DNA from: Lingula anatina | Taxonomy: Eukaryota; Animalia; Brachiopoda | NCBI GenBank assembly: GCA_051362555.1 | Contig: CM120640.1 | Span: forward strand, 2,170,001 to 2,234,000 | DNA: 64,000 nucleotides | Direction: 5' to 3' | In this document: positions 16,685 to 64,000 of the stretch, piece after piece | How positions within the stretch are numbered: the first letter of the stretch is position 1 | Layout: every line of letters starts with the position of its first letter | Notes under the pieces: model-generated | Told to the model about the DNA's origin: nothing | Seen by the model: only the letters and a program-made list of their open reading frames with translations | Databases searched by the model: none | Translations under genes and position numbers: made by a program

Positions 16685-19600
16685 CAATACCACATGGAAT
16701 CTAACTTGTTCTAAAAGTACAGAATACTTCACTGCACTGCCTGCATGTCACAGAGGCAGCTAAAGTCCCTGCAAATAGGCATGCAGCAGAAGAGATAACA
16801 TTTCTGTCAATTACTTAGGAGCTCTGACACACGCAAAGGTTGTCATCACGCTAAAAACAGGTGTTCAATTACAACGCCGCCTTTGTTTCATTTTCATATA
16901 GTATGAGGATGTCTCTCTTCAAATAATTGACGGTGAGTTAATTTTAGTAACTGAGTGTGAAGAGGTCCAGGTTATGATCCTGTCAGACCACCTTGGGGCA
17001 CTACAAGCCTTGTAGATTAAGTCTTTAAATTCTTTAATTTTTTTGGACATGGCAAAAACAACAAGTTCAACTGTCAAGCTATCTTGTTCTTTATCAAAAA
17101 ATGAATTGTTTGCTGCCTATTTTTAGATCACTTGCCCATGAACACTGCATTCTATTGTAATAATAACAATATCCCAGATTTCTGACAAATATCAAGTTTT
17201 ATTTTTAGAATACACCAATATGCAGCCTGGGTCATACCAGTCATTTCTTTCTTTTTCTTTTCTTTTTTTTTTCCATTTCAAAGACATTTTTAGTAGCAAA
17301 TTTAGCAGTACAATTATAAATAGCTTAGTTGGAGAATAAAATATGCTTTGTTTTTTTAGCATAATCTAGATTATTGAGAATATGACAAAAAATTAAGGGA
17401 AGGAAAATGCCTATGATAGGCAATTTAGTTTGAGATTTCCCAGAGTAAAACTAAGAATTAGAGGCAAACCTTGCAGTAAAGCTCAGTAACTACTTCATGT
17501 CTTAAGTCATTTGGTTTCAATGGTTCACAGGTACTGGAACCAGGTGCAATATCAGTACATGCCCTCTTCCTGCAAGGATTTCCATCTGATTTCTATTTTA
17601 GTTTTACCAGTGCTTACAGGTATGGTATCTGCAATTGAAAATGTCCTTAAACAATATTTTCTCTATCTGTATAGCCTGTAAAGCAACTAACATTCCCAAT
17701 TCAGACAATGAAAATTATAAAACCACTGAAAAGAAAATTCCTGATATATCCATATATCCTCCTAAAATGTACAGGGAAACATGGATGTCTAAATGCCTGA
17801 CCTGATATTCATAACTAAATTATTTAATAAGAAAAAAAACCCATCAATTTCAAATGAAGGGCCGACTTAAGCAATGATTCCTTAATAGAAAATTACCTTT
17901 TTCTAGATCAAAATTTGAATTGGTATAAACACCCTGGATAGGATACCTTTGTGAAGTAGTTTTCATCCATTTCTCACAAGTCATAGCCTTTGAAATAAAC
18001 GTACTGACACGTATCTTGTACTAAGGGCAATAACAGCCAAGTTATTTTCTTCAAACTAGAATACCTCAAAATTTCTATTCTAGACAGGGAGGAACACCAC
18101 TTTGCATCATTCCACAAATAGAAGTCCATAATAACATCGATTTCATTTCTTATTCCATAAATATGCATTTGTATCTATAACTGTCAAAGGAAATCCTATT
18201 ATTGACGTAAAAAGGAATTTCTGTGACATTTTTTTATGTACATACATATACAGAGGAGAATTGTGTGTCACCGCAGAGGAAGAAAAGACTCCTGTCATTT
18301 TAGAAAAAAAAAAAATAATAATGTGTCACTTACATGCTGAGACAAGAGAAACTTATGTCAGTGGCTCATGTCTGCACTGTCAGCGACCATACTCATCACA
18401 AACCTCTGGTTCAGGTGGAATGATAAGTACCATGAAAATGTGCCACAAATATCATAAATACCAACACGTTTAGCTCAACAGTGAGTTAAATACTATCATC
18501 TCTTTCCCCTATCTGAGACTGATCACGGCCACTGAGTTCTGTCAATCCTTATCAAGATGACTCTCTTAGAGATCAATGACTACTTAGCTTACATGTTTTG
18601 AATCAGGCAACAGTCCAATAACGTCTGCTATGTACATGGACCAGGTCAACCCAGCCCACTGACTTTTACCATGGAAAAACTCCAAAAATGTTAATGAAAA
18701 GACACCAGAGAATTTCACAATATCTGAAATTTAGTCACCTGATCTTGGCTACATGTGAGGCCTGACACCCAGACTTTTGTGTTGCTGTACAATGTATTTC
18801 TCCTCTCTGTCCCCACCACACGGGGCCAGACCCACATACCAAGGCCCGCAGCCAGTTTTTTTTTTTTTAATTAATTTCTTTGAGGGGGTAGGGGTACAAA
18901 TGAACCACCAGAAAAAGGTCCAGTATTAGTTAATATTGATCAAGGTACACAAAGGTTTCAAAGGTCCACTTTATCAGAAAATGACCCCCCCCCCCGACAT
19001 TTTCCACCATTTAACTTGATGATTTCAACTATTTTGTAACCCATCATTAAACTGCGTAGAGAACTCACAACCTTAAAATATTTCTTCCTTCATCAGTATT
19101 TCAACATAACAGGTATGCATGGTAACAGCCCATGTGGTATGATTATAACTGCACATCTCGCTATTATGGAGAGGCTCAGAGAAAGAGTGGTCTACACATC
19201 TTACCTGTTGGTACGTGACTAAACTTGCAAGGAAATTTAACTCTCTTCCAGTGCCAGAGAAATACCAGTACCTAAGCCTTACACAACCTCAGATCAGCCC
19301 CAGGCCCTGGTCTACAGACTCTACTGGAACAAGTGACTGTCTGCAACACTAAGTCAATTTACTTTAAAATTTAAACTGCCACTTGGCACAAGGGGGCACT
19401 TCAAGACATGCCAAACAGAGCTCCACTTTAAAAAAAAATCCATCATAGTTCCATCTGAGGGGATGGTTTTTATTTTAAGGTTCATTTGTAGAAAAAATCA
19501 GCGTTCAGTGTTAACTTATTAACTAAGCTCCAGTTTAATTATGGGAATACCTCAGAACTTATGTTTTAGAATTAGGACCAAGCAGTTTGCACTGTGCTAG

Positions 19601-33369: not shown

Positions 33370-34746
33370 GTCTCAGCTTGCCTCTGTCATCTGTTAGTTT
33401 GCCTTACTGATCATCAATCCTGTCCTCATGCTGAAGTCACGCACACCACATCAGCTACATCTACAGATGCTTGGAGGCACTACGAGTCCAGGTCCAGATG
33501 GAAGCAGATGGAAAGATGGATGCACTCTGCACAATAGATTGCCCAGAAAGTCGATCACAACTTGTGCGTAACTCTGAAAATATAAACAAAAACATAAGCA
33601 ACCTATCTCGGGTCAAAAACCTGAAGTGTGTGGTAGTAACAAGGCATGTGATGAACAACTGTGTAACACATGTGCTGACTTAAATCTCCCTCGCTTGGAT
33701 TGACTGCTTGAACAAAGGGGATAATCTATGGAAAAAAGCCATAGGAAATCCCAGCATAGGACACTGTGGCTTCATTTTCTCTGTAGCCAAGTTACTATCT
33801 ATGACACGGCCCCTGTTGCACACCGACACCTTATAATCTGTTCAATTAAATACAATATGTCCATGAATATTATCAGACATCCCCAAGGTTAAGATATTTA
33901 CATACTGCATCTTTTAATCAATTTCTAAGCTTATAAAGTCTATCAATATTTATTTGTGATTATCATGACCTGAAATAGATTTATTTAAAATAGTACTAGT
34001 ATGTATATAAAATCCATCATATATACTTTGAGCAATCAAAAAGCAAAAGGTGTGAAAAAAGTACAATTTTATAGATGAACTTCATATTTATGTTCATTTC
34101 ATGATGTATATTATTGACTGACTTAGAACTGTTCACAATGATTACGAGTGTGATATCATATTGTGTAAGTACAGAATAAAAAGAGACATAAACCACATTT
34201 AATGACAAAAGGACGATTTGTTTTCCAATCCAACTTATATGATGCAGTATAGATGCATTTTTATACACATTCTTGGGATTATTTTTGCCCTGATACACTA
34301 TAATCAGCTAATCCCCTGGAGAGGTACATCCATTTTCAAACATTATTATCTTCCAATAAAGAAGTATGCTACAAAATGTGCACAATGACATGACCAGGAT
34401 ATAAATCCTCATGAAAACAAACAGTCATAGTGTGTAGATTTAATTTTCTTTAATAATAAAACAAGAAAAAAAAAAGCTGACAAAGGTTTAAGCATCAAGA
34501 CATGGGGGGGGGGGGGGGGGGGGCAGCAACATGGTTATCTTCTTAACTGAACAAGATATACCAAAATGTTGCATGTTTTAACTGCTTTCCATTTCATATC
34601 ATTATTTTATTGTGTAATAGTTACATAAAGAGATATACCCCTTGAACTTCCTGTTCAAGAGAAAAATTAATTCCTGGAAAAAGGGGTTAAATATTCATAA
34701 CAAGATAATGAGTTCTTTTTTCCTTCTTAACACACACACATACACA

Positions 34747-37800: not shown

Positions 37801-38588
37801 ATAATCAATGAAATCGTTTTCCTTTAGACTGTTGCTGAACTTTCTTCCATGCAATGGTTAATTATCTTATGCCGCTGTCTGTCTGTGGACCACAGACTCT
37901 GGTTCGGTCAGAGATGATGTCTACTTTGATTGCACAGTAGACCACAGCATCAACGACCTAGTCTCTACCTCCCTCGACTAATCATGAAGAATCCCTTCAG
38001 TGAGAGAAAAAAAATTATATATTTCCCTTCACATGATAATCCATAATGGAATTTTGACTCATTAGGACTCCTTTCAGAAGATTCATATGCTCTCTCTTAA
38101 AATGTCTGAAATACATCAGGATTGTCTTCAACCGAAAGCAATTTCTGTCGCTGAAAGCCGAGGGTTATGGGATTAAAATGCCTGACCTACCCTTTTACCA
38201 ACTAAATACAGTTTACTAATCAAGCAAGGAATGCATCATACCAATTTTTTCAAGCATACTGTTTGCTTTCCGATGTATAACATGGGACTAATGACTGAGA
38301 TAGGAGGCCGTATGCACTCCAATATTCACTGCCTTCAGAAACAGCAGCTGTATTCCTAAGCTCAACACAGGTCAGTCTCCATGCATGCAGACCATGCCTA
38401 GAAACGTGTTCTCTTCAGGGCTGCAACCAATATAACAAACCACTCACACTTCACAGGCTTCTCACAGCAACCTTGTCACATCTATACAAGGAAAGAGACC
38501 AGCCATCATCTAGACAGTGCTCTGTCTGGCTGCACTGAGAAAAACTACCCATTCAGATTTCCAATTTGATCCATCAGTCTGGGTCTAA

Positions 38589-38761
38589 GGCCCCATTCAG
38601 AATAGGGGACTAACTAGTCTGAGGGTCCAATATGGCGACCCACTAAAAAGCTTGCCGTCTAATCCACCTATAGACACTGAATAGATATCCCATGGAAGTA
38701 TTCAAGTGGGTCGGTCATATTTGACCCTTGGACTAATTAGTCCCCTATTCTGAATGGGTCT
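38589..38761. mobile_element. Tourist/Harbinger-like MITE (family D)
   Basis: TAA|ggccccattcagaataggggactaa ... ttagtcccctattctgaatgggtct|TAA. Confidence 0.8.
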
Positions 38762-43778: not shown

Positions 43779-43959
43779 CAGGCCTGTAGCCAGGGGGGGT
43801 TCGGGGGGTTCGAAAGAACCTCCCTTTTTGCTGGAAAAAGGTCCACTCTGGGTAAAATTTGACCTAGGTACATGGGGATTATATGGTAAAAGGTCCACTT
43901 TTTCAGAAAAAGAACCCCCCCCCCCCCCCCCCCCTTTGAAATTGCTGGCTACGTGCCTG
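43779..43959 (+). mobile_element. MITE family B (CAGGCCYGTAGCCAG...CTGGCTACGGGCCTG), G/C-run rich
   Basis: TIRs; perfect 5-bp TSD ctgag; near-identical to 60500-60667. Confidence 0.85.
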
Positions 43960-49529: not shown

Positions 49530-52138
49530 AAGAAACCAGCAGCATGCAGGGAAAGCAAGAGTCTTTCAAGGACACTACTGGAAGACCATGGTTCACGTTG
49601 ATTCTATTGATATGAAACGAAAGACCTTGAGGTGATCAAATGTAAATTTTGCACCTGAGGGATCATGTCAGTGGATTAAATTTGCAAGACTTCACACCCT
49701 GCAAACAAAACAAGCTCTTGACATAGTTTGATTTGGTTGTTTGATAAAATTGAGTGCAATGACATCTGTAAATATTTTCCCAGCACCTTGGAACTATTCA
49801 CATCACAACACTAATCTTATTATTTTTTATTTTGCAACGCATTAAATTTCTAATGTTAACAAAGTTGTAACATGTAATAGTAGTAATTAAGAAAGTAATA
49901 TGGTTTGTTATATTTTATACGTATGCTCTTATATTTGAAATAAATGGAGTCACAGTTTTTTATCAATATCTTATTCACAGCTTGGAAATGGTAAGTTGTA
50001 TATTTGAATCTTGGGTTAAGTTTTAGTTGGCGTCTTGCCAAGGCATCTTGCCAATAGGCTGGGATTTTTATACAATTTGATATACTAAAGTCTTGATACA
50101 TGCAAAACATTTTTTTACATTTTATTACACCATTTTCAACAATTTGTTAAACAACAATCTGCAGTGAAAGCAGTAATTAAATCAATAGATACAGTGTGTT
50201 TGTATCACTTTCAGTTTTGTCCCTGACAACATTCTTACATTTAAATTGGACTAACAATGTATGAAATAAAACATTATGACAGACTATGAAGAAGGTCTTG
50301 TTAAAAAAAAAACATATAAGTATATCATTCAATCAGAGACAGCCTGCTTTGCTACATGTACCAGAGCAGCATAAGAGCTTTAAAAAACAATACAATAATA
50401 CAACTAAGTAAAGATAATAAAATCCAGCTGTTTTTGAATTAACCCACTTAAAAGCATGTAATAGTTCAAATATTCCCTAAGGCAAAGCTTGGTTTAAACA
50501 GACTATTTTTATCTCACTTTATTTTGCACCTTGATAACAGATTTTGCCTAGTCTAAATACACATACATGTACAACCTGCATGTACAGGCATCATATTATA
50601 ACAAGAAATTAATGAAAAAAAAATTATTTTTCAATGCTGAAGTACAATAAAGTTTGACTATTAAATACTAACCATTAAATTAAAGGAGTAGCAAGGCATG
50701 ATAAAAAAGAAAAACTATAATTACACCATTACTTTCACATATTCAATACTGTAACTAGTGGGCATCAATAACATAAAAGTTACCTTTTTACCAATCAAAC
50801 AATCCAGTTCTTTATACGCAATTTTAACAAAGTTCATCCCTCTGAGAAATCCACTGAGTGACATAACTGAAGTTAAAATGATTGATATATTGTAGACAAA
50901 GTTTTCATTTTTTGTTTGAAAGTAAATCCCACATGCAGGGCACATACATCTTTCTGGCATGTAACAGTTCTATCAAAATAGCATCACCAATAACCAAATC
51001 CAGGTTATTTTTTTATTCAGGATGGTATGTACTCCATGTACACAGAATGATTCAATAACAGCACTTAACTTAATTACAACTCACAGCTGCTCTACCACAC
51101 ATACCTCACTGCAGGTAGCTGGAATAAACAGGAATGAAATATCAATGATTTTGTTGACAATAACACATCTATTCAAGCCCTGAAGCATGTAGGTCTGGCA
51201 ACCTGTTAATGCAATTCCCTTGAATTATACCAGATGTCAAAAATATCCTGAAAAACAGGCAGAGCAAGGGGTTGGATGGGGGGGGGGGAATCTTTTTTTT
51301 TTGTAGACATTTATTGTTAAGTGCAACCTCATAGTGCAATCCCTATATATATGTTATTTTAGTAAAGGCATCAATTATCATATAAGAACACAATATTTTG
51401 AATAAGAAAAAGCACATACCAAAATGTTAAAAAAGACAATTTTTGTCATGAGAGTTTATGAAAGTTCAGATTACACAGCATAGTAGGTATCAGTGTACCA
51501 AATATCATCCAGCTATGGAAACTGCTTTCCCAAAAGTGAATGGCTTGATAAGTAGAAAAAAATCACAACCAATAAAAAATACCCTGTCTGTGTCATGAGA
51601 ACAGAAAAATGCATCTGATTTATATTCCAACAGATTATCATGTAACCAGTGGTCCGGACAGCTTGAAGGCCAACAACACACAGGAGTAGAGGCACACAGC
51701 CATGTTGTAGAATATTGACATCCCTTGGGAACTGCTATCCAAATCTGTGTTAACATGTCTTTAAATGTCTTTCAAACCACTGTGATGACAAAAAAAAATT
51801 AATAATAATAATTAAAAAAAAAAAACAGCCATAACTGTCAGCAGACATTAAAATATCACTTACTCTACCTAAATTCAATGAAAAGACCTTAGAGCATCAA
51901 TGAATTGTTCACAACACTGTCCCAAGTTGTTCCCATCGGCTTAAATAAATAAGCTCAACACAAGCAGATAGCCTGCTAAGATGGGTAGACCCAACTTGTC
52001 TGGAAACTCAACTTCAGAGTCTTAAAAAAGGAGAGCTTTTAACAAAGTCAACTCAACTTGAAGAGTCTTTGAAAAAAGCAAGAACATAAACCTTTTTTTA
52101 TGTGATCCGTCTTTTCTGGCCTAGTCCCAATGGCTGTA

Positions 52139-52326
52139 TCAAACACGAATAGTTGTGTCTGTTTTGTGTTCAGTTTCCATCATCTCTGTTAATACGTCTG
52201 TGTCTCCCTCTTCCTGGGCTATCGTCTTTTTCCTCTTTCTGTCAAATTTTGTCAACAAAGCTCCTAATCCTATCCCAACCAAAGTGCCACATAAAAACAT
52301 GGATGCCGCTATACCTGTTACCATAC
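52139..52326 (-). CDS. CTBS: CTBS-like exon 9 (transmembrane helix and cytoplasmic tail)
   Basis: cttttttcag|(G)MVTGIAASMFLCGTLVGIGLGALLTKFDRKRKKTIAQEEGDTDVLTEMMETEHKTDTTIRV*; hydrophobic stretch then basic stop-transfer cluster; phase matches exon 8. Confidence 0.82.
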
Positions 52327-53746
52327 CTGAAAAAAGTACCAAATAACTGACATGAGAAATGCACATAAGAGGACCTATCATGTTAAATTTGTCGAAATAA
52401 CTTAAATTTGATCTATAAGGAATCTGAAAAAATGAAGTAAAACTTACCAATTTGAAAATGTTTGAATGTTAAACAATTATCCTATAATGAAAATAATCTT
52501 TACTTTAACTGTAAAACATTATAAGCCAGTTTTCAAAGCTCTGCCCTTCTGAAGAAGCAGGCAAGAGAAGGATTGGAAACAAACTGATATGTTGTATTTA
52601 TCTTTCTTCACACTTCTAATTAAAATACCACTTCAGAATATTGTAACATGAAGTTTTATACAATGGTTCTATTTAGGTGCAATTCTTTTAAATATCATAG
52701 TGTATCAAAATAGAAGGGTACCTGGGAGTTGTTCGTCACATGCTCTACTCTCATACTTGTATGCCTCTACCAGGTCTACTGCTTCCCACATATGATATGT
52801 GAAATTTTGGATTTCTTTCTGTGATGAGTTGTATTCTAAGCTGTCTCCATACCATACTGCAATTCCTACATAAAAAGTTTATATATATATATATATTTGA
52901 TTATAAAAATTAGTGACAAAATAAAACAGCAAATAAAAAAATGTATGAAAGTTCTTTAAAAAACAGCAACAAGTTTTATAGTCATTTATTTTCATATTTC
53001 CCTTGAAATTTAGAGATGAAACAAATTCAGCTGAAATAATTACATAAATGTATAATGAACTGCATATTTTAAAACCATCCTAACTATCATTGTCTTGTTG
53101 AAACAAAAAATGAATGACAGCCATGGTTGACAACACAATGAGTGCTGCACAGCTCAATCTCACCTAACACAATCTGTCTGTCATGCAATGAAACAGTAAC
53201 AGCACCTTACTTACCTTTAAAATTAGCTTCTTTAGAGTATGCATATTTTGTCCAGGTACTTTGTTCATCTTCATACCAAACTTGATACATATAACCATCA
53301 GTGGTATTCTGATGAGAAAATAACACAGGATTACACAGGGTTATCAACAGCAAATTTCTAAGAATAATTTTACAATGGAATAATACCTGTTTTTTACAAT
53401 GGAATAATACCTGAAAAACAATTTATCTCCCAAATGAAATGAACCCCTTAATATCTTCATTATTAATAGGTATTTTACCTGTCAATCAAGTCATGGAACC
53501 TAATACCAGTTGTACACTTTCAAGACTTACTAAATAGCCAAAAGAATTGGTCACTTACCTTGAAATTAAAATAAGGTGTTCTGTACCCAGAATGCCACAG
53601 TCTGGAGGCGTTATACTGGACTTTGATTGCCAGTATTTTGGCCAGTGACAGTCTCTCGCCAGTGGCATAGCTGCAGTTAACACCATGGAATGGTTTTGGA
53701 GAAACAATACATCTGTTGGTCTGAAAAAAGTGACGTACATAAAAAA

Positions 53747-53777
<31 letters not shown>

Positions 53778-56075
53778 TAATTAATATCCTTGAGATAAAA
53801 CTGTTACTAGAGGGTCAAAGCAGCAATACCGCCATCAAGTTTTGCACCATCAGCAGGAATGAGATAATTCAAGGCTGCTTTCAGAACAATGGACTAACTA
53901 GTCCTTGGGTCAAATATGGCTACCCACTGAAAAGTTTACCATAAATAGATTTCCTATAAGGAAGTAAGTGGGTCGGCCATATTTGATCCCGGACTAGTTA
54001 TTCCACTGTTCTGAATACATCCAAAGTTTAACAATATTTACAATGCCTTTATCAGCCAGCTTTACCTTGGGATCAAAGTGTATACACCTGTACTTGTATC
54101 CGTACCAAGGTACTGACAGGACCATCTGGTTGACAGGCATATTAACGGACATGTACATGGTGTAACCTGCAATGTATGGCAGGCAGACATCTTACGTTAG
54201 ATCCAAGAAAACATCTCTTTTGGTTCAGAAAGTAACTACAAGGAACATTTATCATTACCACTGCATCAGAACCTGTTCATACAACAACCAGTCATTACTG
54301 TTAATGGAGAATACTTCTGCTAGTCAAACAAAAATACATACACATAAGTATAAAATAATTGTAAAGAAAGAAAGAACTAAGTAGTGAGGGGGTGTTCACT
54401 GTAAATAAGTTCACTGTAAATAAGAAATTCCATGTGTAATTCCATGTTGAATGTCATCCCAAAACACCTATACTTGAACTTGTTACAACATATACATGTT
54501 CCAGTGAATCAGAACCCTCTTGGCTTCATTTTAGTTATAAATCATACTGAGACTGCATGTACATCCTTACCATACAAAATCCGTGCAAACGGTGCATGTG
54601 CCCCTGCTGTGCAGTTCCCTCCCCAGTCATGTACGCCATGAATGTGGTCAGATTTGATGATGAACAGATCAACTATTTCAGCCATTTCAGCTTCTGGCAA
54701 GCACATGTCATCAAAACAATAAGGCATCCAAGGTACACTAAATGATAACTAGTAAAGAAAGAAAATATCTTAATATAAACATGTGATATACGTATATATA
54801 TATATATATATATACCTTTGTTGTGTATGATTCACAATCATTTTAGCATGTACAGTATTACATGTACCACCCAAAATGGTAAGAGATCAAATTAGAGGAT
54901 TCAATGCACAAAGTGGTGTTTTTAAACAGACACATGTGCTAGTAATAGATTATAATTAAAATGTATGAAACCCATGAAATAATTGTCAAATTACAGTGTG
55001 CACCAATACTTTGAAATAATTCTCAATTTATTGGTGCATGCTATAGCTGTGTCCATACCAAACTAATCCACAGAAACTGTCCTACCTGACATTTTGTGGT
55101 ACTTCCATCCCCAACAACTGGAAAGTTCCCTATCATATCATCAAAACCGTTCCTAATGTCTCTCAAAACAGAAACTAGAAGTCTGCTATCGTTAGAGTCT
55201 TGTGCTAGAGGCACGTCAAGGTCCAGATTTATGGCATCATTCCTCGTACAGTGAGACTGAAAAATTAACCCCTTTGTGAAGTTTTCCCTAAACTCTGTAT
55301 CGTAAAATGCTGTGATGTTTTTCAATACATCTGAAAAAAAAAAGCATAATGTCTCTCATTAATGTATGGTTCTAGTATCTCCATTTAACAAGGTTGGGTT
55401 TCTGATATATTTATTTATTTAGATCACCACCATTTACAATGGAATGAAAACAAAAACAAAATAAGATGAAATAAAATACATAAAATAACAAGCCTTCAAA
55501 AAACTCTCACATACATATGTGTGAAAATAAGTCAAATATGTAACAAAAACTGAATAAAATTTTGTGAAAAGCCATGTGTAAAAGATTTATCATCACCTAA
55601 TCTCATTTATACCAAACTTCCCATTTCACACATCTTTGTATATTTCAAATATCATGGTGTGTGTGTGTGTGTGTGTGGGGGGGGGGGGGTTAATCATTCA
55701 GGAATGTGGGTAAAATATAAGTACGTGTAAGTTGATACACTATCTCTAGGCAGGAGAGTATCATATTACCCTGATCATGCAGGTACCCCCAGTACTCATT
55801 CACACACTAAGGTTTAATTAAGTCACTGGGAGCACCAACAATAACCTGAGGCACAATGACAGTAGTCAAGATGCAATGTTACATCACTCACATTATATAA
55901 ACCTTGGTTCAAAATGTCATGTGGGAATGGATATGGCTTACATCATTAACATTCTCGACCCTTGGGGTGGTATATTATACACAATGCAGCTAGGTGTTGC
56001 TTGCCTTCTACCTGCATGCTCCCTTACTACATATGTAGCTTACCCGGAACTTGTGTATGACTAAATAATATATAT

Positions 56076-56139
<64 letters not shown>

Positions 56140-59100
56140 ATATGTATATAAACTAGATAAGTGGATGTCATTTCATCTCTTTACATTATAATTGCAATCA
56201 AGTCACAACACTGTATCTCCACCAAAGTCATAAATCCTGCCTTTGCCAACTGAAATCATAGCACGGTTTCTGTGACAAAACTGTCTAAAAAGGAGTACAC
56301 AGTAAACAATGGGGGCTAAAATTGACTTGTATATCTCTATGCCATGACAGGCTCCATGTATAGTCTTCCCACACACTGTTTGTCTACTGGGACTGTTATC
56401 ATCTCAAACAGCCAGGAGACGAGACAGGTGAAGAAATTTAATGATTTTTAAAAGCAAGGAGGTGTAATGGAGAACTGATGTGGATTAACGACTTTATATT
56501 AAGTGAAAATAAGTGTGCACTTTGAAATTTTGCTTTTGTAAATTTGCTTTTCTGTTTTTTTTTTTTTTGTTTTTTTTAGTAAATCAATTCTGTGCTGCTC
56601 AAGCTAACATATTTCTATGAGGCTGGATATGTGTTTTCAGATGCTTCCGAACAGCAAAAATCAAACCACTTGACATTTTCATAGACATTTAACCATCAAA
56701 ATAACAAATGGCTATCAATTTCATATTTCCTTAAAAGCATGCAGACTATACTTAAGTATATGCGTAGAACCCTACCCCCCCCTTCACCCTCCCCCCCTCC
56801 CCAAAAAAAAAAAAAAAAAATGAACAGTTAAAACTCACATCTCAGTCCATATCTGGCTCCCTGTTTGTGGGCGTGGCACATCAGCTCCGGGTCATGGAAG
56901 TTCTCAGTGTATACCACTGTAATATTTCTCCAGTCCCAGTGGAGGTAAGTTTTACTAGTCACATCCTTGTCCTTGGCAAATACAATCACCTGAAATTAAA
57001 ACAAAACCAAAAAGGTGTTGTAAAAGACTATAGCAGAACTTTCCTCCATTAAAAAACAAAAGAGACAGACATTTCTCCCTCCCTTCCCTCCCTTTGCCTT
57101 AAATATTGAAGAGTTTGTACAAGAAAATAATGTATTAAGAAATATTTTTCGATATTGAAATGATGTAACTATAGAGGATATGCAGATATTAATGGAAAGA
57201 ATTAGAGGATATAGAAATTCGTTAAGATGGAAAAGTCTAAAGTGACAATTGACTCCGGTGGATATATGTCCACATACAATCATTTTATCACAAACATTCA
57301 TAAACAGATTATGGTTTACATTACGTGTACCAAAATGCATAACAAAATAATGCAACATTGTTATATATTATCTATATAACAATGAGACATAATTATATAT
57401 AAGCACATGAGCCACATGATAAACACACCTGGAGACCATTTGTCTATCATTACCACTGATACATTGCTTTATGTACTGATCAATACCCAGTCTATGGACA
57501 ATATATTCATCCTTGGACAGCTTAATGGAAAATAATCAGTATTTTGTATCAATATCGTCTTTTTCAGGAAACCAATGTGATAAAAAGCTGCCAGTACTTA
57601 GGGCTCCTAAACTATGGCAAATGGATTTTAACGAATGATTCACCTTATAAGCTACCTGGTCTTTGATGAATCATGCTTTTACCAAAATGCATTTAGTTAA
57701 CTTTAAGATCTAAGAACTTTTCTTTGTTTTATATAAAACTATGCATATGCGTTTTTTATGTGTGAGATTGAGAAGGTGCATCTGCCTACTCCAAAGAGCT
57801 CTTCTTTCAACCCCTCCCCCCCACACACCACTCCCTGTCTATGAACCTGACAAAAAAGCAACTCTCAAACAGTAAAAAAATAAAAAATAAAAAAAAAACA
57901 GTACTGAGGTTACAAACTGCAATACTTGACTTCATAAAACTGCATGACTGTGATTTTTTCAGTTGTTCTTTTAGATATATACCTTTAAATAAAAGAGAAA
58001 TCCTTTAAAAATATAATGGAAATGCTATCAACCAAAAACCACACAAAAGAGTGTGACCAAGCTTGTAAGATGGCCATTTGTTATCAATGAGGTAAAATTA
58101 GATGACAAATAAATCGTCTGCACTGGCAACACCCTAGCAACCACAGCCAGCCATATATTTGCTGAAGTAGAACATTAAATGTGCTATGAATGCATTCGGA
58201 ACAGCAGACTAACGGATCTGCGAATCAAATATGGCCAACCCGCTAGAATGCTTGTTGAGTAATCCCCGCAAGAAATCTATTTAGTATCTAATCGAGAATT
58301 AAGATGCAATCTTTTTTGGGGGTCACTTGATCCGCTGTTTTGGTCCACTAGCTGTTTTGAATATGCTCTATGTCATTCTCCTATTCTGCCTCAGGTAAAT
58401 GACATGACCAACATCAAGAACACACACACTATATTTATACTGGTATATCATCATTTTTATACAGTTATAAAAAAAGAGCCTCTTATATCATTTTTTTTAA
58501 TGTTTTAATTTTGTTTGTGCTTGAGTGAACCACCCCTATAGTCCATACATTATGCTACAGTGACAGTAAAAACCTTGTAACCAGTGGCAAACTAAAGGGA
58601 GCACATCTTTCATATAAGAAAATGACGATGGATGACATCATAACGCAGTACGTGAGACTTGTCTCCACCCAGTGACATCAGCCTCAGGCCACCATTTCAC
58701 AAAATGACAAAAACCTAATGCAGACTGCATGCTGAACTTTTAGTCCAATAACTTAAAGAATCCATAAATAAATGTCCCTCATCCCCCTTTTTAATCTGTC
58801 TTTTAACCAAGATCCTACAGCAAATTTTACCTATGTTGACAATTGATTTTTCTCTTAGTACTCTGTCAACTACATTTATTGTGAGTTAACCATTGATAAA
58901 ATACTCTAAGACCAATATACCAAACCAGACTTTACATAGTCACCTAGTGAACAATTTTAGCAGGCTAAACAGAGACCAAAATTTGAACATCATAGCCATT
59001 TCTTCCTTGTTCTAAAACAAAGAATCGCAAAGGCCAGAAATTGACTAAACTTAAAAGAAAGAAAAAAATGTACACATACATGTATGTATGCCCCTCTCAG

Positions 59101-60408
59101 TCCAGTCTTTAATGAGAATTTTATCAGATAAACACATTTAGAACACTACATGGGGGTCCCTACAGTATGATTGGTCAAATGGAGTGCAGCTTTACTGATG
59201 TACTAGTATAGCTTACATGAATATGAATGAAAGACTGATACCACAAGACATCAAAAACAACATACATGTAGACCTCTTCACACAAAAAGTTATGAATATT
59301 ATTCCGACATTAATTGGTTAACTGACATGAACAAGATGTGAAAATATGAATACCACATGTAGGCACTTTCTAATTAGATAATAAGGGGTTTACCTGGTAC
59401 TCTACAGCTATTAACTGTGTAATTTGAAATAAAATGATCATTATATCTCCCAGGAAAGGAAAGGCACTGGGTGATTAGAAGTGGCAATGAACGGCATGAC
59501 TGTGGACAATATCATCTGCAAACTAACTGATAACTAGAGGTAAAAATATGCCACGGGAATAACAGACTTTTCTAAACATTTCTTTTTAGCAAAGAAGTCA
59601 TTTTGTTAAATCAGTTTCTTTAAAGTGCTTTATTGATCAAAATCATTCAGTGACACTTTTATTTCTTGGTCAATTTAGTTACAGCAAAACTGTAATATCT
59701 CTTGTGAGTTAGGCAAAAATGAAAGCAGCGCTTTACCTGACCATATTTCAAAAAACCTATAAATTGTGTTTGTCACTGATGTCATCAATGTCACCCCGAC
59801 CTATTCAGGTTAGAGAGGATATTAAAAAAAAACATTTACCCACTACTTTCAAAACACTTCTTATAATGTACTTCACATGAACTTCAGCAGTCATTATTGG
59901 TCTGAGGAATTTTTGTACTTTGTGAGATACTGATAAAAGAGCTGCACCCAGAGGAGTGGTATATAAAAGACATCTACTGTTACATCACTAAGGGGCAGGT
60001 GGTGGGTGAAGAACAGTCAAGCTATAACCTGTTCACTGCTCAGTATATAAGATCATTCATGCATAGTATAAAGAGTATATCACGTATATGGAATTTTAAT
60101 GGTACAGAAAACAATTTATTCCTTAATGCTTTAATTCTGTTCACGCCATGTTTATTGTGCACAGATAAGGGGGGGGGGGGTTGCAAAGGGGGGGTGGGAT
60201 GGTATGAGGTGGGCAGCCAATCCAATTGTAACATCATTTTATTTAAGAGTAGACAGGCCCATAGCCAGCAATTTCAAAAGGGGGGGGGGGGGGGAGTCTT
60301 TTTCTGAATAAGTGGACCTTTTCCCATAAAAACTTCATGTACCTAGATCAAATTTTATCCAGAGTGGACCTTTTCCTAGCAAAAGGGGCAGTTCTTTCGA
60401 ACCCCCCA

Positions 60409-60479
<71 letters not shown>

Positions 60480-61445
60480 CTACGGGCCTGGTAGACTACC
60501 AGGCCAGTAGCCAGGGGGGGTTCGGGGGGTTCGAAAGAACCGCCCCTTTTGGTGGGAAAAGGTCCACTCTGGGTAAATTTTGATCTAGGTTTATGAAGTT
60601 TTTATGGAAAAAGGTCCACTTTTTCAGAAAAAGAACCCCCCTTTTGAAATTGCTGGCTACGGGCCTGACTACACACTTCTACCACTACTGATCTACTTCT
60701 TTACTTCTATCCCCTCCACCCCCAGTCTAGTATGACATCACACAGTGACAAAAGCTAGCTGTCCAGGATTCTAAGTTATAGGCCATATTGTATAGTGGTC
60801 TTGAAATAAGTCTATTCTATTGATTATGCATTGTTAGTCTTCTATTCACCCTAAAAGTCATAGTTTACATACCCTATCAAAACACCTTCCAAAATGGAAA
60901 AGGCATGCTGACTATATTATGTTGAAATTCCTGTAAACTTTTATAACAAAAAAAAAAAATAATACCAGGAATAGTGATACCGTTTCCATCACCAGTGATA
61001 CCCATGGTGATCAGGCATATTCACACTGGGAACATTTTTCACATGCAACAGCTTTTTGTAATGGCACATCAGCTGAATATTGATGCATATATTTTAAGTC
61101 AAAAAGGCACAAGTCTATGCCATGCAGTGTGTAAAATATAAAACCCTACACACCCATAAGCAAACATGCACCGTCAGTAGCATGTGTAAATAGCACTTGT
61201 TCCTATGCTAATACTCTTACATATCTATGCTAATACTCATTCTGTTACAATATCAAGTGGTGTGATTTCTTCCATACCTCTTTCCTGTGCTTATTGGCCA
61301 CTATAGGTTTACATTGCTCCAGTGTCTTGCAATCACATGGGTAAGTTTTGTCACAATAATAGGAAGACCCAAACTGGGCACAGGTCACTATGAGGGCCGA
61401 GCCCAAGAGATACAGCCTAAACACAGCAGTCCTGAACATAGTCAT
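52139..61445 (-). CDS. CTBS: Di-N-acetylchitobiase-like GH18 protein with C-terminal TM helix, 476 aa; join(complement 61278..61445, 56839..56989, 55086..55330, 54571..54748, 54066..54166, 53559..53720, 53215..53308, 52722..52865, 52139..52326)
   Basis: Nine GT-AG exons sum to 1431 nt in one frame. CTBS hallmarks: signal peptide, C.C....C.P, WDWRNIT, DPELMCHAHKQGAR, VPWYGY.Y.C, PF.G..CS, PYFNFK, QVWYED, GIAVW..D.L.Y, MWE. May be a divergent paralog rather than the ortholog. Confidence 0.88.
52722..52865 (-). CDS. CTBS: CTBS-like exon 8 (end of GH18 barrel and stalk)
   Basis: (G)IAVWYGDSLEYNSSQKEIQNFTYHMWEAVDLVEAYKYESRACDEQLP|gtaccc. Confidence 0.88.
53215..53308 (-). CDS. CTBS: CTBS-like exon 7
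   Basis: NTTDGYMYQVWYEDEQSTWTKYAYSKEANFK|gtaagt. Confidence 0.9.
53559..53720 (-). CDS. CTBS: CTBS-like exon 6
   Basis: TNRCIVSPKPFHGVNCSYATGERLSLAKILAIKVQYNASRLWHSGYRTPYFNFK|gtaagt. Confidence 0.92.
53873..54022. mobile_element. Tourist/Harbinger-like MITE (family D) in a CTBS-like intron
   Basis: ttcagaaca..ggactaactagtcc..ggtcaaatatggc.acccact / agtgggtcggccatatttgatcc.ggactagtta..tgttctgaa; similar to 38589-38761. Confidence 0.7.
54066..54166 (-). CDS. CTBS: CTBS-like exon 5
   Basis: (G)YTMYMSVNMPVNQMVLSVPWYGYKYRCIHFDPK|gtaaag. Confidence 0.92.
54571..54748 (-). CDS. CTBS: CTBS-like exon 4
   Basis: LSFSVPWMPYCFDDMCLPEAEMAEIVDLFIIKSDHIHGVHDWGGNCTAGAHAPFARILY|gtaagg. Confidence 0.88.
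55086..55330 (-). CDS. CTBS: CTBS-like exon 3 (degenerate catalytic motif DAINLDLD)
   Basis: (Y)VLKNITAFYDTEFRENFTKGLIFQSHCTRNDAINLDLDVPLAQDSNDSRLLVSVLRDIRNGF...KCQ|gtagga. Confidence 0.88.
56078..56135. repeat. (GT)n microsatellite
   Basis: Directly visible. Confidence 0.97.
56839..56989 (-). CDS. CTBS: CTBS-like exon 2
   Basis: VIVFAKDKDVTSKTYLHWDWRNITVVYTENFHDPELMCHAHKQGARYGLR|gtgagt; not in the ORF track on this strand. Confidence 0.92.
58188..58368. mobile_element. Degenerate family D MITE
   Basis: gcattcggaacagcagactaac..atcaaatatggccaaccc with a partly complementary right arm. Confidence 0.5.
60254..60490 (-). mobile_element. MITE family B copy (inverted orientation, expanded C-run)
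   Basis: Reverse complement of family B; TSD gtaga/gtaga; about 68-nt C homopolymer. Confidence 0.85.
60500..60667 (+). mobile_element. MITE family B copy
   Basis: TIRs; TSD actac/actac. Confidence 0.85.
61278..61445 (-). CDS. CTBS: CTBS-like coding exon 1 (signal peptide and Cys motif)
   Basis: MTMFRTAVFRLYLLGSALIVTCAQFG...PCDCKTLEQCKPIVANKHRKE|gtatgg; acceptor ctttttatttacag near 61507. Confidence 0.85.
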
Positions 61446-64000
61446 TTCTCTGGTCAGCTGGTCAGTATCCCTGGCTCAGTAAAATATCCCTCATTGCTGG
61501 ATGAATCTGTAAATAAAAAGACACGTTATATCTCCTGACTTTTCCTGGTGACATGTGCAGTGCATAGTGGTCAATAGCTTCCTCAAAAATGGTTGATTGA
61601 ACTGTACCCCCTGATTCTGTGATATCTGCATGTACTCTGTGATATACCTTTATCCTCTATAATATCAGCAACCACGGACCTACCATCCCATGGGCTGTCA
61701 GTGTCACGTAGGAGATATATGACAATAAGACCTGGACTGCAAGGCAAGAATCAATAACTTAAACAGGCAGTCATTAAACATACATGTACAGTGCATGCAG
61801 TCAGAACTATAGTGGCCTAGAGGTAGGCTCCATCAACAGTGTACAGTCCTCACTCTCTTTTTCTTGTCTCTTCAGGTGTGTTTGGTCTCTCAGTCACTTC
61901 ACAATTAACTTCTCAGGTGACCTCATTCCTGCTTGCCAGCTGTTATTCCACTGCCATTATTACCTGTGAGCATTCTCTGCTATATGCTGTCTATAGCCTC
62001 CTATTACATAGTGCACTAACTGGGAGATAATGCATTGTAAAAAGCCCTACTGTTTATTAAGTGGTCGCCTTTCAGTCCCAACACGCTGGTGTGTGCACAC
62101 ATGCATATATGGCATCCTTATCAACCATATATCATTCTGAAGAAAGCCCATGCAAATAAACCATCAATCTCGATCTTAGAGTTATTTGTTCCATCAGTGA
62201 AAGGCTAAAAGCCCAGTGTACATACAGGATGCATATGTATGTTAACAGCAATCTATTAAAGTGAAAAAGTGAAAGTTGATTTAGAAAAGATCCAGAGGGG
62301 GTGCCATCTTTTATAAAGGGTGGAGGAATGGGTGGGGGGGGGGGGGGGGCAGTAGTAAGAAAAAGTGTTATTCTGGCCTTATTGTCATTTGTTATTCTGA
62401 CCCGCAAAAAATTAGATACCTGTATAAAGAAGTGTCTTCATGTCAAAGGTGGCCTTCATTTGACCAACCATTTGACCAATAAACTTTGGTTAAACAATAT
62501 GAAAAATTATTATTTAAAATTGTCCAAAGTATATTGAGTATGCTTCATATTGAGTATATTTCTGTTTAAAAGTTAATTTGGTTCAATAAAAATGCCTACT
62601 AGTATTGATCCTATGGTCATATCTCATACCTACGACCCAAAATCCTAGCTCATACCAATGCCCTTAATCTTATCTTTACAGTTCAGGATGACTCATAAAT
62701 ATTTTTTCTACGAAACATGCACATTGAAATAATTATTGATATAAGCAACTCAAATATTTCATCAACCAACTAATTTTTTATTTTCTTGGTACACATGAAC
62801 ATTGATAATTAAAAATTTCAAAATCTTTGGCATGCTGTACCTTCCAGTGCCCAAGGGATGACTCCTATGACATAACAAGGTATGAAAGGCTTAAAAACTA
62901 AATGTGATTTATGTCAATTATTAGAAAACATCAAAATAAAATATTTTTCTCCATAGTGCAGTAATCTAATTAGTGGTCTCAGCAGTACTGCATGGCTCTC
63001 TGATGAATATACTCTAATAATTGTGGTCAATTTGTTTCACTCAAAACCTATTTTCATCTTAATTTAATATCTATATCTTAATCACATCCTGACTTAGTCA
63101 GCCGTGTGATGAAAAGACCCCTGCATAGTCAATAAACCCTGGGCTATATGAGTCAGTGCCAACAAAAATATTAAAAATAGATGCAGATCACCTGTATAAC
63201 CACACAGAAAAATTTTAAATGATTAATAAGCAGCCTAACAGTCTAATGTTATTCCATCTTTTGTTATTCAAATATTTTGCATCTCGTTTGTACTAGGTAG
63301 AATTTTCATTGCCTGTGTCAATAAATTCTTCCCGGATGTGACTAGATCCCACTAGCATTTTAATGTTTGGAAGTGGTCCAAACTGAGGAAAACAAACAAG
63401 GAAGTAAAGTTTTGCCATATACGGTCTTAAAGCAGTACAACTGATATGGGGTGATGTCTTTATGTTGTTCAGTACTAGAATATTCTACGAATAAGCAAAT
63501 CTTGTTCAGTTGACATTCTCAATAATTATCAGTCAGCTTCCTTGAATACTTTCCTGTCATCTTGATAAATTAAGAACAGTCACCCCCAAACAATGCCAAA
63601 AACAAAAGAAATAATGCTACAGCCCCATATAAAAGACCCGCTGTCAGAAGCAAGTTTCAAGAAGCATACTTAAATCAAGAAACGTTCCAGAAAATTTATT
63701 AGCAAATTATATCCAATTTTAGGAATAACATTTTACTTTGATGCAAATTCTGAATGTATGAAAAGAAAAAGATTTACCCCTTCCAGAGGAAAAAGAATAT
63801 AACAGGAGTCCATTGAATAGCATAACAGGTAAGATAAGATTATAATCCAGTGTAAAACGTAAATTAATGTAATCTGTAGATAAACTATGGATATGTCAAG
63901 GTACTGTGGATGATTTTAAAATTCTTTTATTAAAAAAGCAAATATTTTAAGGTACATAATTTATCTATATTTAAGTTGCGTTCATTAATTGAAAGCTTGA

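What the first reader, a model, noticed from the sequence alone, without database searches (positions are those of the whole stretch)
54571..55330. Chitobiase-like GH18 gene with an intact ORF but a rewired active site: candidate pseudo-enzyme or chito-oligosaccharide lectin
Seen: exon 3 reads NDAINLDLDVP where chitobiases read DGINIDIE, so the catalytic acid Glu of the GH18 DxxDxDxE motif is Asp. Exon 4 reads DLFIIKSDH where GH18 enzymes have D....M.YD, losing the Tyr/Asp that assist substrate-assisted catalysis. All 9 exons remain open with clean splice sites, and substrate-cleft aromatics (VPW, PWYGY, QVWY, AVW) are kept. Known: GH18 proteins lacking the catalytic Glu (chi-lectins such as YKL-40 and IDGFs) bind but do not cleave chitin; these derive from the chitinase branch. 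Inference: an independently evolved chi-lectin from the CTBS branch.
Basis: partly seen in the sequence, partly recalled or inferred. Interest (0 to 1): 0.82.

Follow-up and report, generated by a model that had tools for sequence, protein, structure and literature searches.

The report
Membrane-bound pseudo-chitobiase of brachiopods and molluscs
This lamp-shell (Lingula) gene is transcribed and spliced, and it encodes a copy of the sugar-trimming enzyme chitobiase that lacks its catalytic glutamate and carries a predicted membrane anchor; similar copies occur across snails and clams, so it is likely an old, overlooked family of sugar-binding membrane receptors rather than an enzyme.

Summary
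A nine-exon, 476-aa GH18 gene (98% identical to a RefSeq Lingula anatina 'di-N-acetylchitobiase') has Asp in place of the catalytic Glu and has lost the beta-6 Tyr and Met. Whether the beta-6 Asp is lost depends on an unresolved one-residue register. It is no pseudogene: polyA reads from three studies splice 7 of 8 coding introns, and exons 3-4 show 27 silent against 5 amino-acid differences. The protein has a predicted C-terminal membrane helix and groups (100/99, active-site columns removed) with limpet, abalone, whelk, snail, clam, mussel and pearl-oyster proteins. Of 157 homologues, 18 of 18 helix-bearing ones with a residue at that column lack the Glu; 0 of 119 Glu-bearing ones have the helix. 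Molluscs also keep ordinary chitobiases. So this is an old paralogous subfamily of type I membrane pseudo-chitobiases, named as enzymes in databases; my literature searches found no description. Most likely it captures GlcNAc-containing glycans without cutting them (about 0.5); a protein-binding co-receptor is the main rival (0.3). Binding is untested. New variant of a known kind; interest 0.52.

The parts
61278..61445 (-). Coding exon 1 (aa 1-56): start codon, predicted signal peptide (about aa 1-23), Cys-rich N-terminal arm
   Evidence: joint 56987-61276 in 3 RNA runs; helix 2-23 in the model
56839..56989 (-). Exon 2 (aa 57-107): barrel strands 1-3
   Evidence: spliced to exon 3 as loose ends at 55330
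55086..55330 (-). Exon 3 (aa 107-188): strand 4 with the DxxDxDxE motif, Glu replaced by Asp145
55215..55217 (-). Codon Asp145 at the catalytic-acid column
   Evidence: no read difference listed in 4 RNA runs
54571..54748 (-). Exon 4 (aa 189-248): strands 5-6, W195, remodelled beta-6 motif
54644..54655 (-). K220-S221-D222-H223, where chitobiases read M-S-Y-D; Met and Tyr lost, register of the Asp unresolved
54066..54166 (-). Exon 5 (aa 248-281): strand 7, PWYGY with Y269
53559..53720 (-). Exon 6 (aa 282-335): insertion domain
53215..53308 (-). Exon 7 (aa 336-367): QVWY strand
52722..52865 (-). Exon 8 (aa 367-415): strand 8 with W371, last barrel helix, stalk
   Evidence: the exon 7-8 joint was not among the rows shown
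52139..52326 (-). Exon 9 (aa 415-476 and stop): predicted membrane helix, basic stop-transfer stretch, acidic tail of about 37 aa
52253..52315 (-). Predicted transmembrane helix aa 419-439 with conserved small-residue face (G419, G428, G432)
   Evidence: hydropathy up to 1.99; G428 in 22 of 22, G432 in 20 of 22 clade rows; 1 K/R before, 6 after
61446..61506 (-). 5' UTR part of exon 1; an upstream non-coding exon begins at 61784
   Evidence: joint 61506-61784 with GT-AG ends in 2 RNA runs

Best explanation
This is an expressed, spliced chitobiase-derived gene whose catalytic Glu is replaced by Asp; its product is a predicted single-pass membrane protein of a likely old brachiopod-mollusc subfamily that would hold GlcNAc-containing glycans in its remodelled cleft without cutting them, as a capture or sorting receptor. 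Steps: (1) shown: signal-like N-terminus, GH18 barrel with 10 N-glycan sequons, one hydrophobic helix, short acidic tail; (2) shown: the acid Glu, beta-6 Tyr and Met and several chitobiase-specific residues are changed, in this protein and across the clade; (3) inferred: hydrolysis is lost; (4) inferred: kept cleft residues (D143, D222, Y269, W371, W195) still bind an N-glycan core or short chitin oligomer at the cell surface or in endosomes; (5) inferred: the conserved glycine face of the helix packs against a partner or a second copy, and the tail directs traffic. Odds: paralogous, membrane-bound and non-catalytic about 0.85; glycan as the ligand about 0.55 of that.
For: Gene and expression. 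Selection: 27 silent to 5 amino-acid differences in exons 3-4, pN/pS 0.05-0.075. Fold: Pfam GH18 E 7.5e-11; model pLDDT 88; Z 31.8, rmsd 2.7, 316 aligned to a GH18 chitinase; Atlas best structural match is a chitobiase cluster, TM 0.90 by target. Clade: 12 of 12 helix-bearing rows in one branch at 100/99 with only barrel columns and no active-site columns; Patella and Lingula proteins share the same first Atlas cluster at 0.98; names. Helix and loss of Glu go together: 18 of 18 against 0 of 119. Mollusc rows keep polar or aromatic residues at strand ends: D143 12 of 16, D/E222 15 of 17, H269 16 of 17, aromatic 371 14 of 17, W195 16 of 17. In mouse AMCase the Glu sits 2.8 A from the glycosidic oxygen and the beta-6 Asp binds the -1 sugar (PMC11182645, passages), so a shorter Asp without the Tyr should not cut (inference).
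Against: No binding or activity data. The closest relative P0009 has lost D143, D222 and Y269 equivalents (V, S, V), so the glycan contacts are not kept clade-wide. Position 60 (Phe in 71 of 75 canonical rows) is Phe/Leu polymorphic in Lingula and Phe in 3 of 14 mollusc rows. The conserved mollusc tail (aromatic-acidic run, terminal Leu in 19 of 20 rows) is absent from the Lingula protein and P0009. Lingula alone keeps three acids (D138, D143, D145), so residual activity is not excluded. Eight coding differences outside exons 3-4 were 5 amino-acid to 3 silent (from a table cut to 40 of 381 rows). All clade branches are long, so attraction cannot be fully excluded. No single genome was shown to hold both this gene and a canonical chitobiase.
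Confidence: 0.5

Rival explanations
1. Same membrane pseudo-enzyme, but the cleft no longer binds sugar and serves as a protein-binding surface: a co-receptor or accessory subunit in the manner of Klotho, or of the insect IDGF/AgBR1 proteins.
For: Chitobiase-specific residues D192, R203, Y205, N239, D299 and the beta-6 Met and Tyr are changed throughout the clade, while Cys, Trp and Gly scaffold positions are kept; clade rows keep 32-41 of 60-63 canonical positions against a canonical median of 93%. The helix has a conserved glycine face. AgBR1 has the fold and binds no chito-oligosaccharide (PMC12090808, abstract).
Against: Polar and aromatic residues at strand ends stay conserved in molluscs, and Lingula keeps N141, D143, Y269 and W371. 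No partner is known.
Confidence: 0.32
2. The Lingula protein is a slow or re-specified membrane-bound hydrolase that uses Asp145 (perhaps with His223 or Lys220) as the acid.
For: Glu>Asp is conservative, D138 and D143 remain, and codon 145 showed no listed difference in 4 RNA runs. Weak glycosidase activity has been reported for alpha-Klotho despite a missing Glu (PMC11696049, passages).
Against: The same column is Leu, Met, Val, Thr or Ile in 16 of 16 mollusc rows and Val in P0009, so an acid is not needed in the clade. The assisting Tyr is absent in every register. Glu>Asp mutants of GH18 chitinases are recalled to lose most activity (not found in the library).
Confidence: 0.1
3. Lingula's own chitobiase decayed and gained a helix independently; the grouping with the mollusc proteins is long-branch attraction.
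For: Branches are long (0.9-2.1 changes per column), tails differ, and no second chitobiase was seen in the window while the rest of the genome could not be searched.
Against: 100/99 support under LG+C20 PMSF; alternative rejected at p-AU 0.007, though that group was chosen after the tree was seen. The helix, left out of the tree, lies at the same place with the same glycines. Shared W74 (15 of 15 molluscs, Lingula, P0009; Tyr or Phe in most canonical rows) and E348 (17 of 17; Asp in 81 of 82 canonical rows).
Confidence: 0.07
4. A recent pseudogene or an assembly artefact.
For: None beyond the changed active site.
Against: Open frame in two independent sequences (window and RefSeq), spliced polyA reads in three studies, pN/pS under 0.08 in exons 3-4.
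Confidence: 0.01

Closest known systems
Di-N-acetylchitobiase (CTBS), GH18 chitobiase clade
   Same: Fold, Cys pattern and 30-34% identity to fish chitobiases; 41 of 63 canonical positions kept.
   Different: CTBS is a lysosomal exo-enzyme releasing reducing-end GlcNAc (PMC13213659, passages); 0 of 119 Glu-bearing homologues have a C-terminal helix. Here Glu, Tyr and Met are changed and a helix plus tail is added.
Chitinase-like lectins (CHI3L1/YKL-40, YKL-39, Ym1, OVGP1, IDGFs, oyster Cg-Clp)
   Same: GH18 barrel without the proton-donating Glu.
   Different: They come from the chitinase/chitolectin clade, with Glu replaced by Leu, Ile or Gln (PMC1945033, passages), are 14-17% identical in structural alignments and are soluble (recalled).
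CHID1/SI-CLP
   Same: Non-hydrolytic GH18 outside the chitinase clade (PMC4373397, passages).
   Different: Separate clade; Z 25.8, rmsd 2.7, 281 aligned, 14% identity; secreted.
Tobacco CHRK1 (works like)
   Same: Glu-less GH18 ectodomain on a membrane protein (PMC10573068, passage; PMC5485988 instead calls the domain predicted to be enzymatic).
   Different: Class V chitinase origin and an intracellular kinase; the Lingula tail is about 37 aa with no domain.
Klotho proteins (works like)
   Same: Type I membrane pseudo-glycosidase whose barrel lacks a catalytic Glu and serves as co-receptor (PMC11696049, abstract start and passages).
   Different: GH1, two barrels, vertebrate FGF ligands; no homology tested or claimed.
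Ray and shark 'di-N-acetylchitobiase-like' proteins seen here
   Same: CTBS-derived, D143 column changed in 5 of 5 and Glu in 4 of 5.
   Different: No helix; nest with vertebrate CTBS at 100/98, though one joint origin with this clade is not rejected (p-AU 0.22).

Membership tests
CTBS (di-N-acetylchitobiase) | GH18 barrel with insertion domain | tested here: met
CTBS (di-N-acetylchitobiase) | Descent from the chitobiase clade | tested here: met
   7 of 7 other hits are chitobiase-type; (hhalign probability 100)
CTBS (di-N-acetylchitobiase) | Catalytic Glu of DxxDxDxE | tested here: not met
   Asp145
CTBS (di-N-acetylchitobiase) | Beta-6 Met and Tyr (84 of 84 canonical rows) | tested here: not met
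   absent in all registers
CTBS (di-N-acetylchitobiase) | Beta-6 Asp | tested here: inconclusive
   D222 is the Asp in one-gap registers and sits at the Tyr column in the gapless one
CTBS (di-N-acetylchitobiase) | Soluble protein without membrane helix | tested here: not met
CTBS (di-N-acetylchitobiase) | Releases reducing-end GlcNAc from (GlcNAc)n | not testable with these tools
   needs an assay
Chitinase-like lectins (CLP group) | GH18 fold lacking the catalytic Glu | tested here: met
Chitinase-like lectins (CLP group) | Origin in the chitinase/chitolectin clade | tested here: not met
   30-34% to chitobiases against 14-17% to CLP structures; no chitinase-clade rows were added to my tree
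Chitinase-like lectins (CLP group) | Binds chito-oligosaccharides | not testable with these tools
   cleft partly kept; no coordinates or docking available
CHID1/SI-CLP | Orthology to CHID1 | tested here: not met
   14% identity, rank 31 of 50 rows, against 30-34% to chitobiases; CHID1 was not placed in the tree
Membrane pseudo-glycosidase receptors (Klotho, CHRK1); resemblance only | Signal peptide, Glu-less barrel outside, one helix, cytoplasmic tail | tested here: met
   hydropathy and charge bias, model; prediction, not localisation
Membrane pseudo-glycosidase receptors (Klotho, CHRK1); resemblance only | GH1 repeats or intracellular kinase | tested here: not met
   Pfam gives GH18 only; tail about 37 aa
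Membrane pseudo-glycosidase receptors (Klotho, CHRK1); resemblance only | Ligand binding with signalling or uptake | not testable with these tools
   needs cells and ligands

The most novel reading that the evidence does not exclude
The subfamily is a cell-surface chitin or chito-oligosaccharide receptor of brachiopods and molluscs, made from a lysosomal glycosidase before the two phyla split, that senses or retrieves chitin fragments where shell matrix, chaetae, radula or gut lining are built. A lead: one of two limpet transcripts labelled DIAC is about 40-fold higher in the radula formation zone than in muscle (FPKM 208.8 against 5.2), and the RefSeq Patella vulgata 'di-N-acetylchitobiase' P0023 is a Glu-less membrane member; which paralogue that transcript is could not be told.
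Probability: 0.2. Interest if true: 0.8.

Novelty: new variant of a known kind. Interest (0 to 1): 0.52.

Why it matters
Reviews describe the chitobiase clade as one active exo-enzyme per species, with pseudo-enzymes confined to the chitinase and CHID1 clades (PMC4373397, PMC1945033, passages), and a mollusc survey gives the chitobiase group the Glu-bearing motif (PMC7560691, section 13). The data here show a conserved Glu-less, membrane-anchored paralogue across brachiopods, bivalves and gastropods that databases call an enzyme, so expression and proteome studies that read 'DIAC' as chitin degradation may have the wrong protein. If it binds chitin fragments or N-glycan cores, it is a directly testable candidate for a chitin-sensing or glycan-sorting receptor in animals that build chitinous skeletons.

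Tried and rejected
Single exons found no GH18 family in Pfam (0 of 9) and exon 3 no useful PDB hit; the whole protein was needed. No whole genome is held for this window, so a second, canonical chitobiase in Lingula stays unsearched; inside the window 10 protein queries hit only this locus. I first read D222 as the kept Asp, then as a Tyr replacement; leave it open. A single origin of the membrane clade and the shark/ray proteins is not rejected, so two independent losses are favoured by the best tree only. The word-indexed search with the clade alignment returned 9 proteins and only one further name (Pinctada), so the range beyond molluscs and Lingula is unknown. No RNA holder was listed; raw reads were laid instead. 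Earlier findings of this scan: nothing by sequence or by words. PMC7747718 concerns GH20 chitobiases and is not relevant (passages). The Lingula genome paper's supplement has no 'chitobiase', 'CTBS' or 'DIAC' entry. Sequon counts differ little (median 5 in 16 clade rows, 4 in 73 canonical rows) and were not used as evidence of location.

Full report
The gene. Nine minus-strand exons between 61445 and 52139 have GT-AG ends and give 1431 nt, 476 aa, no internal stop. A search with exon 3 alone returned 1 protein among 52 candidates: P0001, 476 aa, named by its sources 'di-N-acetylchitobiase isoform X1 [Lingula anatina]'; it differs from the window model at 9 of 476 residues. The window is therefore lingulid brachiopod DNA. 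P0001 matches Pfam GH18 at E 7.5e-11. A model built on a 113-row alignment has pLDDT 88 and pTM 0.81, with a barrel from about 56 to 401 and helices at 2-23 and 412-465; it aligns to GH18 chitinases at Z 31.8, rmsd 2.7 over 316 residues, and the Atlas's own model is nearest to a chitobiase cluster (TM 0.90 by target).

The active site. Against seven fish chitobiases (30-34% identity) the Glu of DxxDxDxE is Asp145; 84 of 85 non-clade rows have Glu at that column. P0001 has the same Asp, and none of 4 RNA runs listed a difference at the codon (depth about 2-3 in two runs, 20-40 in two). At beta-6, canonical rows have Met and Tyr in 84 of 84 and Asp in 81 of 84; Lingula reads K-S-D-H. The register is open: gapless in the large alignments, one gap in the small one and in one of three profile pairs, and 8 gap to 10 gapless among 18 clade rows by hmmsearch. 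Tyr and Met are gone either way; an acid stays within one residue of the Asp. Other positions that canonical chitobiases keep in 80% or more of rows are also changed: G139, D192, R203, Y205, N239, D299 columns. Kept are N141, D143, W195, Y269, W371 and the Cys, Trp and Gly scaffold; in all 41 of 63 such positions, against a canonical median of 93%. In mouse AMCase the Glu lies 2.8 A from the glycosidic oxygen and the beta-6 Asp binds the 6-OH of the -1 sugar (PMC11182645, passages). That a shorter Asp without the Tyr cannot do this is inference; the strong loss in Glu>Asp chitinase mutants is recalled and was not found in the library. That W346 of QVWY is a core residue of the insertion domain rather than a cleft residue is also recalled.

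It is expressed and constrained. PolyA or oligo-dT reads from 4 runs of 3 studies cover the exons; joints match coding introns 1, 3, 4, 5, 6, 8 and a 5' UTR intron, and loose ends show the exon 2-3 splice: 7 of 8 coding introns; intron 7 was not among the rows shown. In the two stranded runs first mates lie almost only on +, as expected for a minus-strand RNA. All 32 differences listed for exons 3-4 in a second set of 4 runs split 27 silent to 5 amino-acid, pN/pS 0.05-0.075 by assumed transition bias, binomial p under 1e-9. Against this, the 8 coding differences that I could read outside exons 3-4 were 3 silent to 5 amino-acid, from a table cut to 40 of 381 rows; the tail and loops may be freer. 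The runs differ from the window by several percent and may be other populations or cryptic species.

After the barrel come a stalk, a hydrophobic helix (419-439, hydropathy up to 1.99), a basic stretch (1 K/R before, 6 after) and a tail of about 37 residues; all 10 sequons lie before the helix. This is predicted type I topology. The search of 1.84 billion representatives gave 591 hits at E 0.001, of which the best 150 were listed. Among these and the earlier hits (157 rows), 19 have such a helix; 18 of the 18 with a residue at the Glu column lack Glu, 0 of 119 Glu-bearing rows have a helix, and 7 Glu-less rows have none (kin are not independent, so the Fisher p of that call is not quoted as a test). 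Named members are from Patella, Haliotis, Babylonia, Candidula, Potamilus, Sinanodonta, Mya and Pinctada; 4 of the 10 clusters looked up carry no name, among them the best hit P0009 (478 aa, 34%, E 6e-73). Databases call them di-N-acetylchitobiase, chitobiase-like, GH18 or hypothetical proteins.

One clade. FastTree on 137 of 157 rows joined them at 1.00. IQ-TREE (LG+C20, PMSF) on 40 rows that I chose (12 of 19 helix rows, 4 shark/ray rows, 24 canonical), using barrel columns only and without the beta-3, beta-4 and beta-6 motif columns, gives 100/99 for the clade and 96/84 for P0001 with P0009. Holding P0001 and P0009 with the six canonical rows that include Solemya, Elysia and the oyster cluster is rejected, p-AU 0.007 (group picked after seeing the tree). 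The Atlas puts P0001 and Patella P0023 next to the same 64-member, mostly mollusc cluster at 0.98. The helix was not in the tree, yet it lies at the same place with G428 in 22 of 22 rows, G432 in 20, G419 in 19 and G423 in 19. Canonical Glu-bearing chitobiases exist in Crassostrea, Solemya and Elysia, so both types occur in bivalves and gastropods; both in one genome was not shown, and the Lingula genome could not be searched. A shared origin puts the duplication before the brachiopod-mollusc split, early Cambrian or older (recalled). Long branches remain a caveat.

How it likely works. Shown: architecture, residue changes, expression, constraint, clade. Inferred: no hydrolysis (the column is Leu, Met, Val, Thr or Ile in 16 of 16 mollusc rows). 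Inferred and open: the ligand. Mollusc rows hold D143 (12 of 16), D/E222 (15 of 17), H269 (16 of 17), an aromatic at 371 (14 of 17), W195 (16 of 17), T239, R302 and D375, which reads as a kept, re-cut binding site; Lingula keeps more of the ancestral site than any other member checked. I therefore favour capture of a GlcNAc-containing glycan, the ancestral substrate class (N-glycan core or short chitin oligomer; PMC13213659, passages), at the surface or in endosomes, with the glycine face pairing to a partner and the acidic tail directing traffic: about 0.5. A protein ligand is the close rival (0.32): P0009 lacks those contacts, and AgBR1 binds no chito-oligosaccharide despite the fold (PMC12090808, abstract). 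The mollusc tail motif (aromatic residue, acidic run, terminal Leu in 19 of 20 rows) is not in P0001 or P0009, so traffic may differ between the subgroups.

Comparison with what is known. Animal GH18 proteins fall into chitobiases, chitinases/chitolectins and CHID1 (PMC1945033, passages); the chitobiase clade is described as one active member per species in the vertebrates tabulated (PMC4373397, passages). A mollusc survey gives its chitobiase group the motif with Glu (PMC7560691, section 13; its supplement could not be read and may list these genes). The protein fails membership of CTBS on Glu, Tyr and solubility, and of the CLP and CHID1 groups on descent; it works, by architecture, like tobacco CHRK1 (PMC10573068, passage) and Klotho (PMC11696049, passages); the primary papers on these were not read. 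Searches for a description (and six direct phrases with 0 papers) found none; I saw listings and abstract starts for most hits, and the library lacks most subscription journals. In limpet, two transcripts labelled DIAC have opposite patterns, one at FPKM 208.8 in the radula formation zone against 5.2 in muscle (PMC9263180, passages and supplement rows); which paralogue it is cannot be told. Lingula has 31 chitin synthase genes and chitinase in its shell matrix (PMC4595640, passages), with no chitobiase entry in the supplement.

Verdict. Observation confirmed, interpretation partly supported and widened: an old subfamily of membrane-anchored pseudo-chitobiases, new variant of a known kind. Glu-less GH18 proteins are common, which caps the surprise; the chitobiase origin, the membrane anchor and conservation across two phyla raise it. 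Interest 0.52; 0.8 if it proves a chitin receptor (probability 0.2).

Noticed in passing
P0029, P0038, P0041, P0052, P0097 (not in the window): Rays and a sawshark carry helix-less chitobiase-like proteins with a changed DxDxE motif, with several entries in Pristiophorus; they nest with vertebrate CTBS at 100/98 and may be a second loss of catalysis in this branch.
   Followed up: partly
P0036 (unnamed): A further helix-less homologue with Gln at the Glu column, placed among canonical rows by FastTree.
   Followed up: no
window 61462-61494 (-): A short upstream reading frame that starts with ATG in the 5' UTR of exon 1 stops 16 bases before the main start; four RefSeq accessions share the one protein, which suggests alternative UTRs.
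   Followed up: no
window 32917-33372 (-) and 1148-1432 (-): An SH3-like exon (Pfam E 0.003) and a C1-domain exon (E 3e-5); the first is recalled to resemble a PI3-kinase regulatory subunit. Whether they belong to one gene was not checked.
   Followed up: partly
window 60249-60670, 43779-43959, 18910-18995: An inverted-repeat element with arms of about 170 bases (86% alike) around a C run in intron 1; further copies in the window and very high RNA read depth point to an abundant MITE-like repeat.
   Followed up: partly
window 53861-54010 and 38587-38749: A second short repeat in intron 5, with many partly matching reads.
   Followed up: no
window 51000-52138 (-): Read depth continues to the end of the laid stretch, so the 3' UTR is at least 1.1 kb.
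   Followed up: no
P0014 (Elysia, 756 aa): Two chitobiase domains in tandem, both with Glu; a tandem gene pair fused by annotation or a true double enzyme.
   Followed up: no
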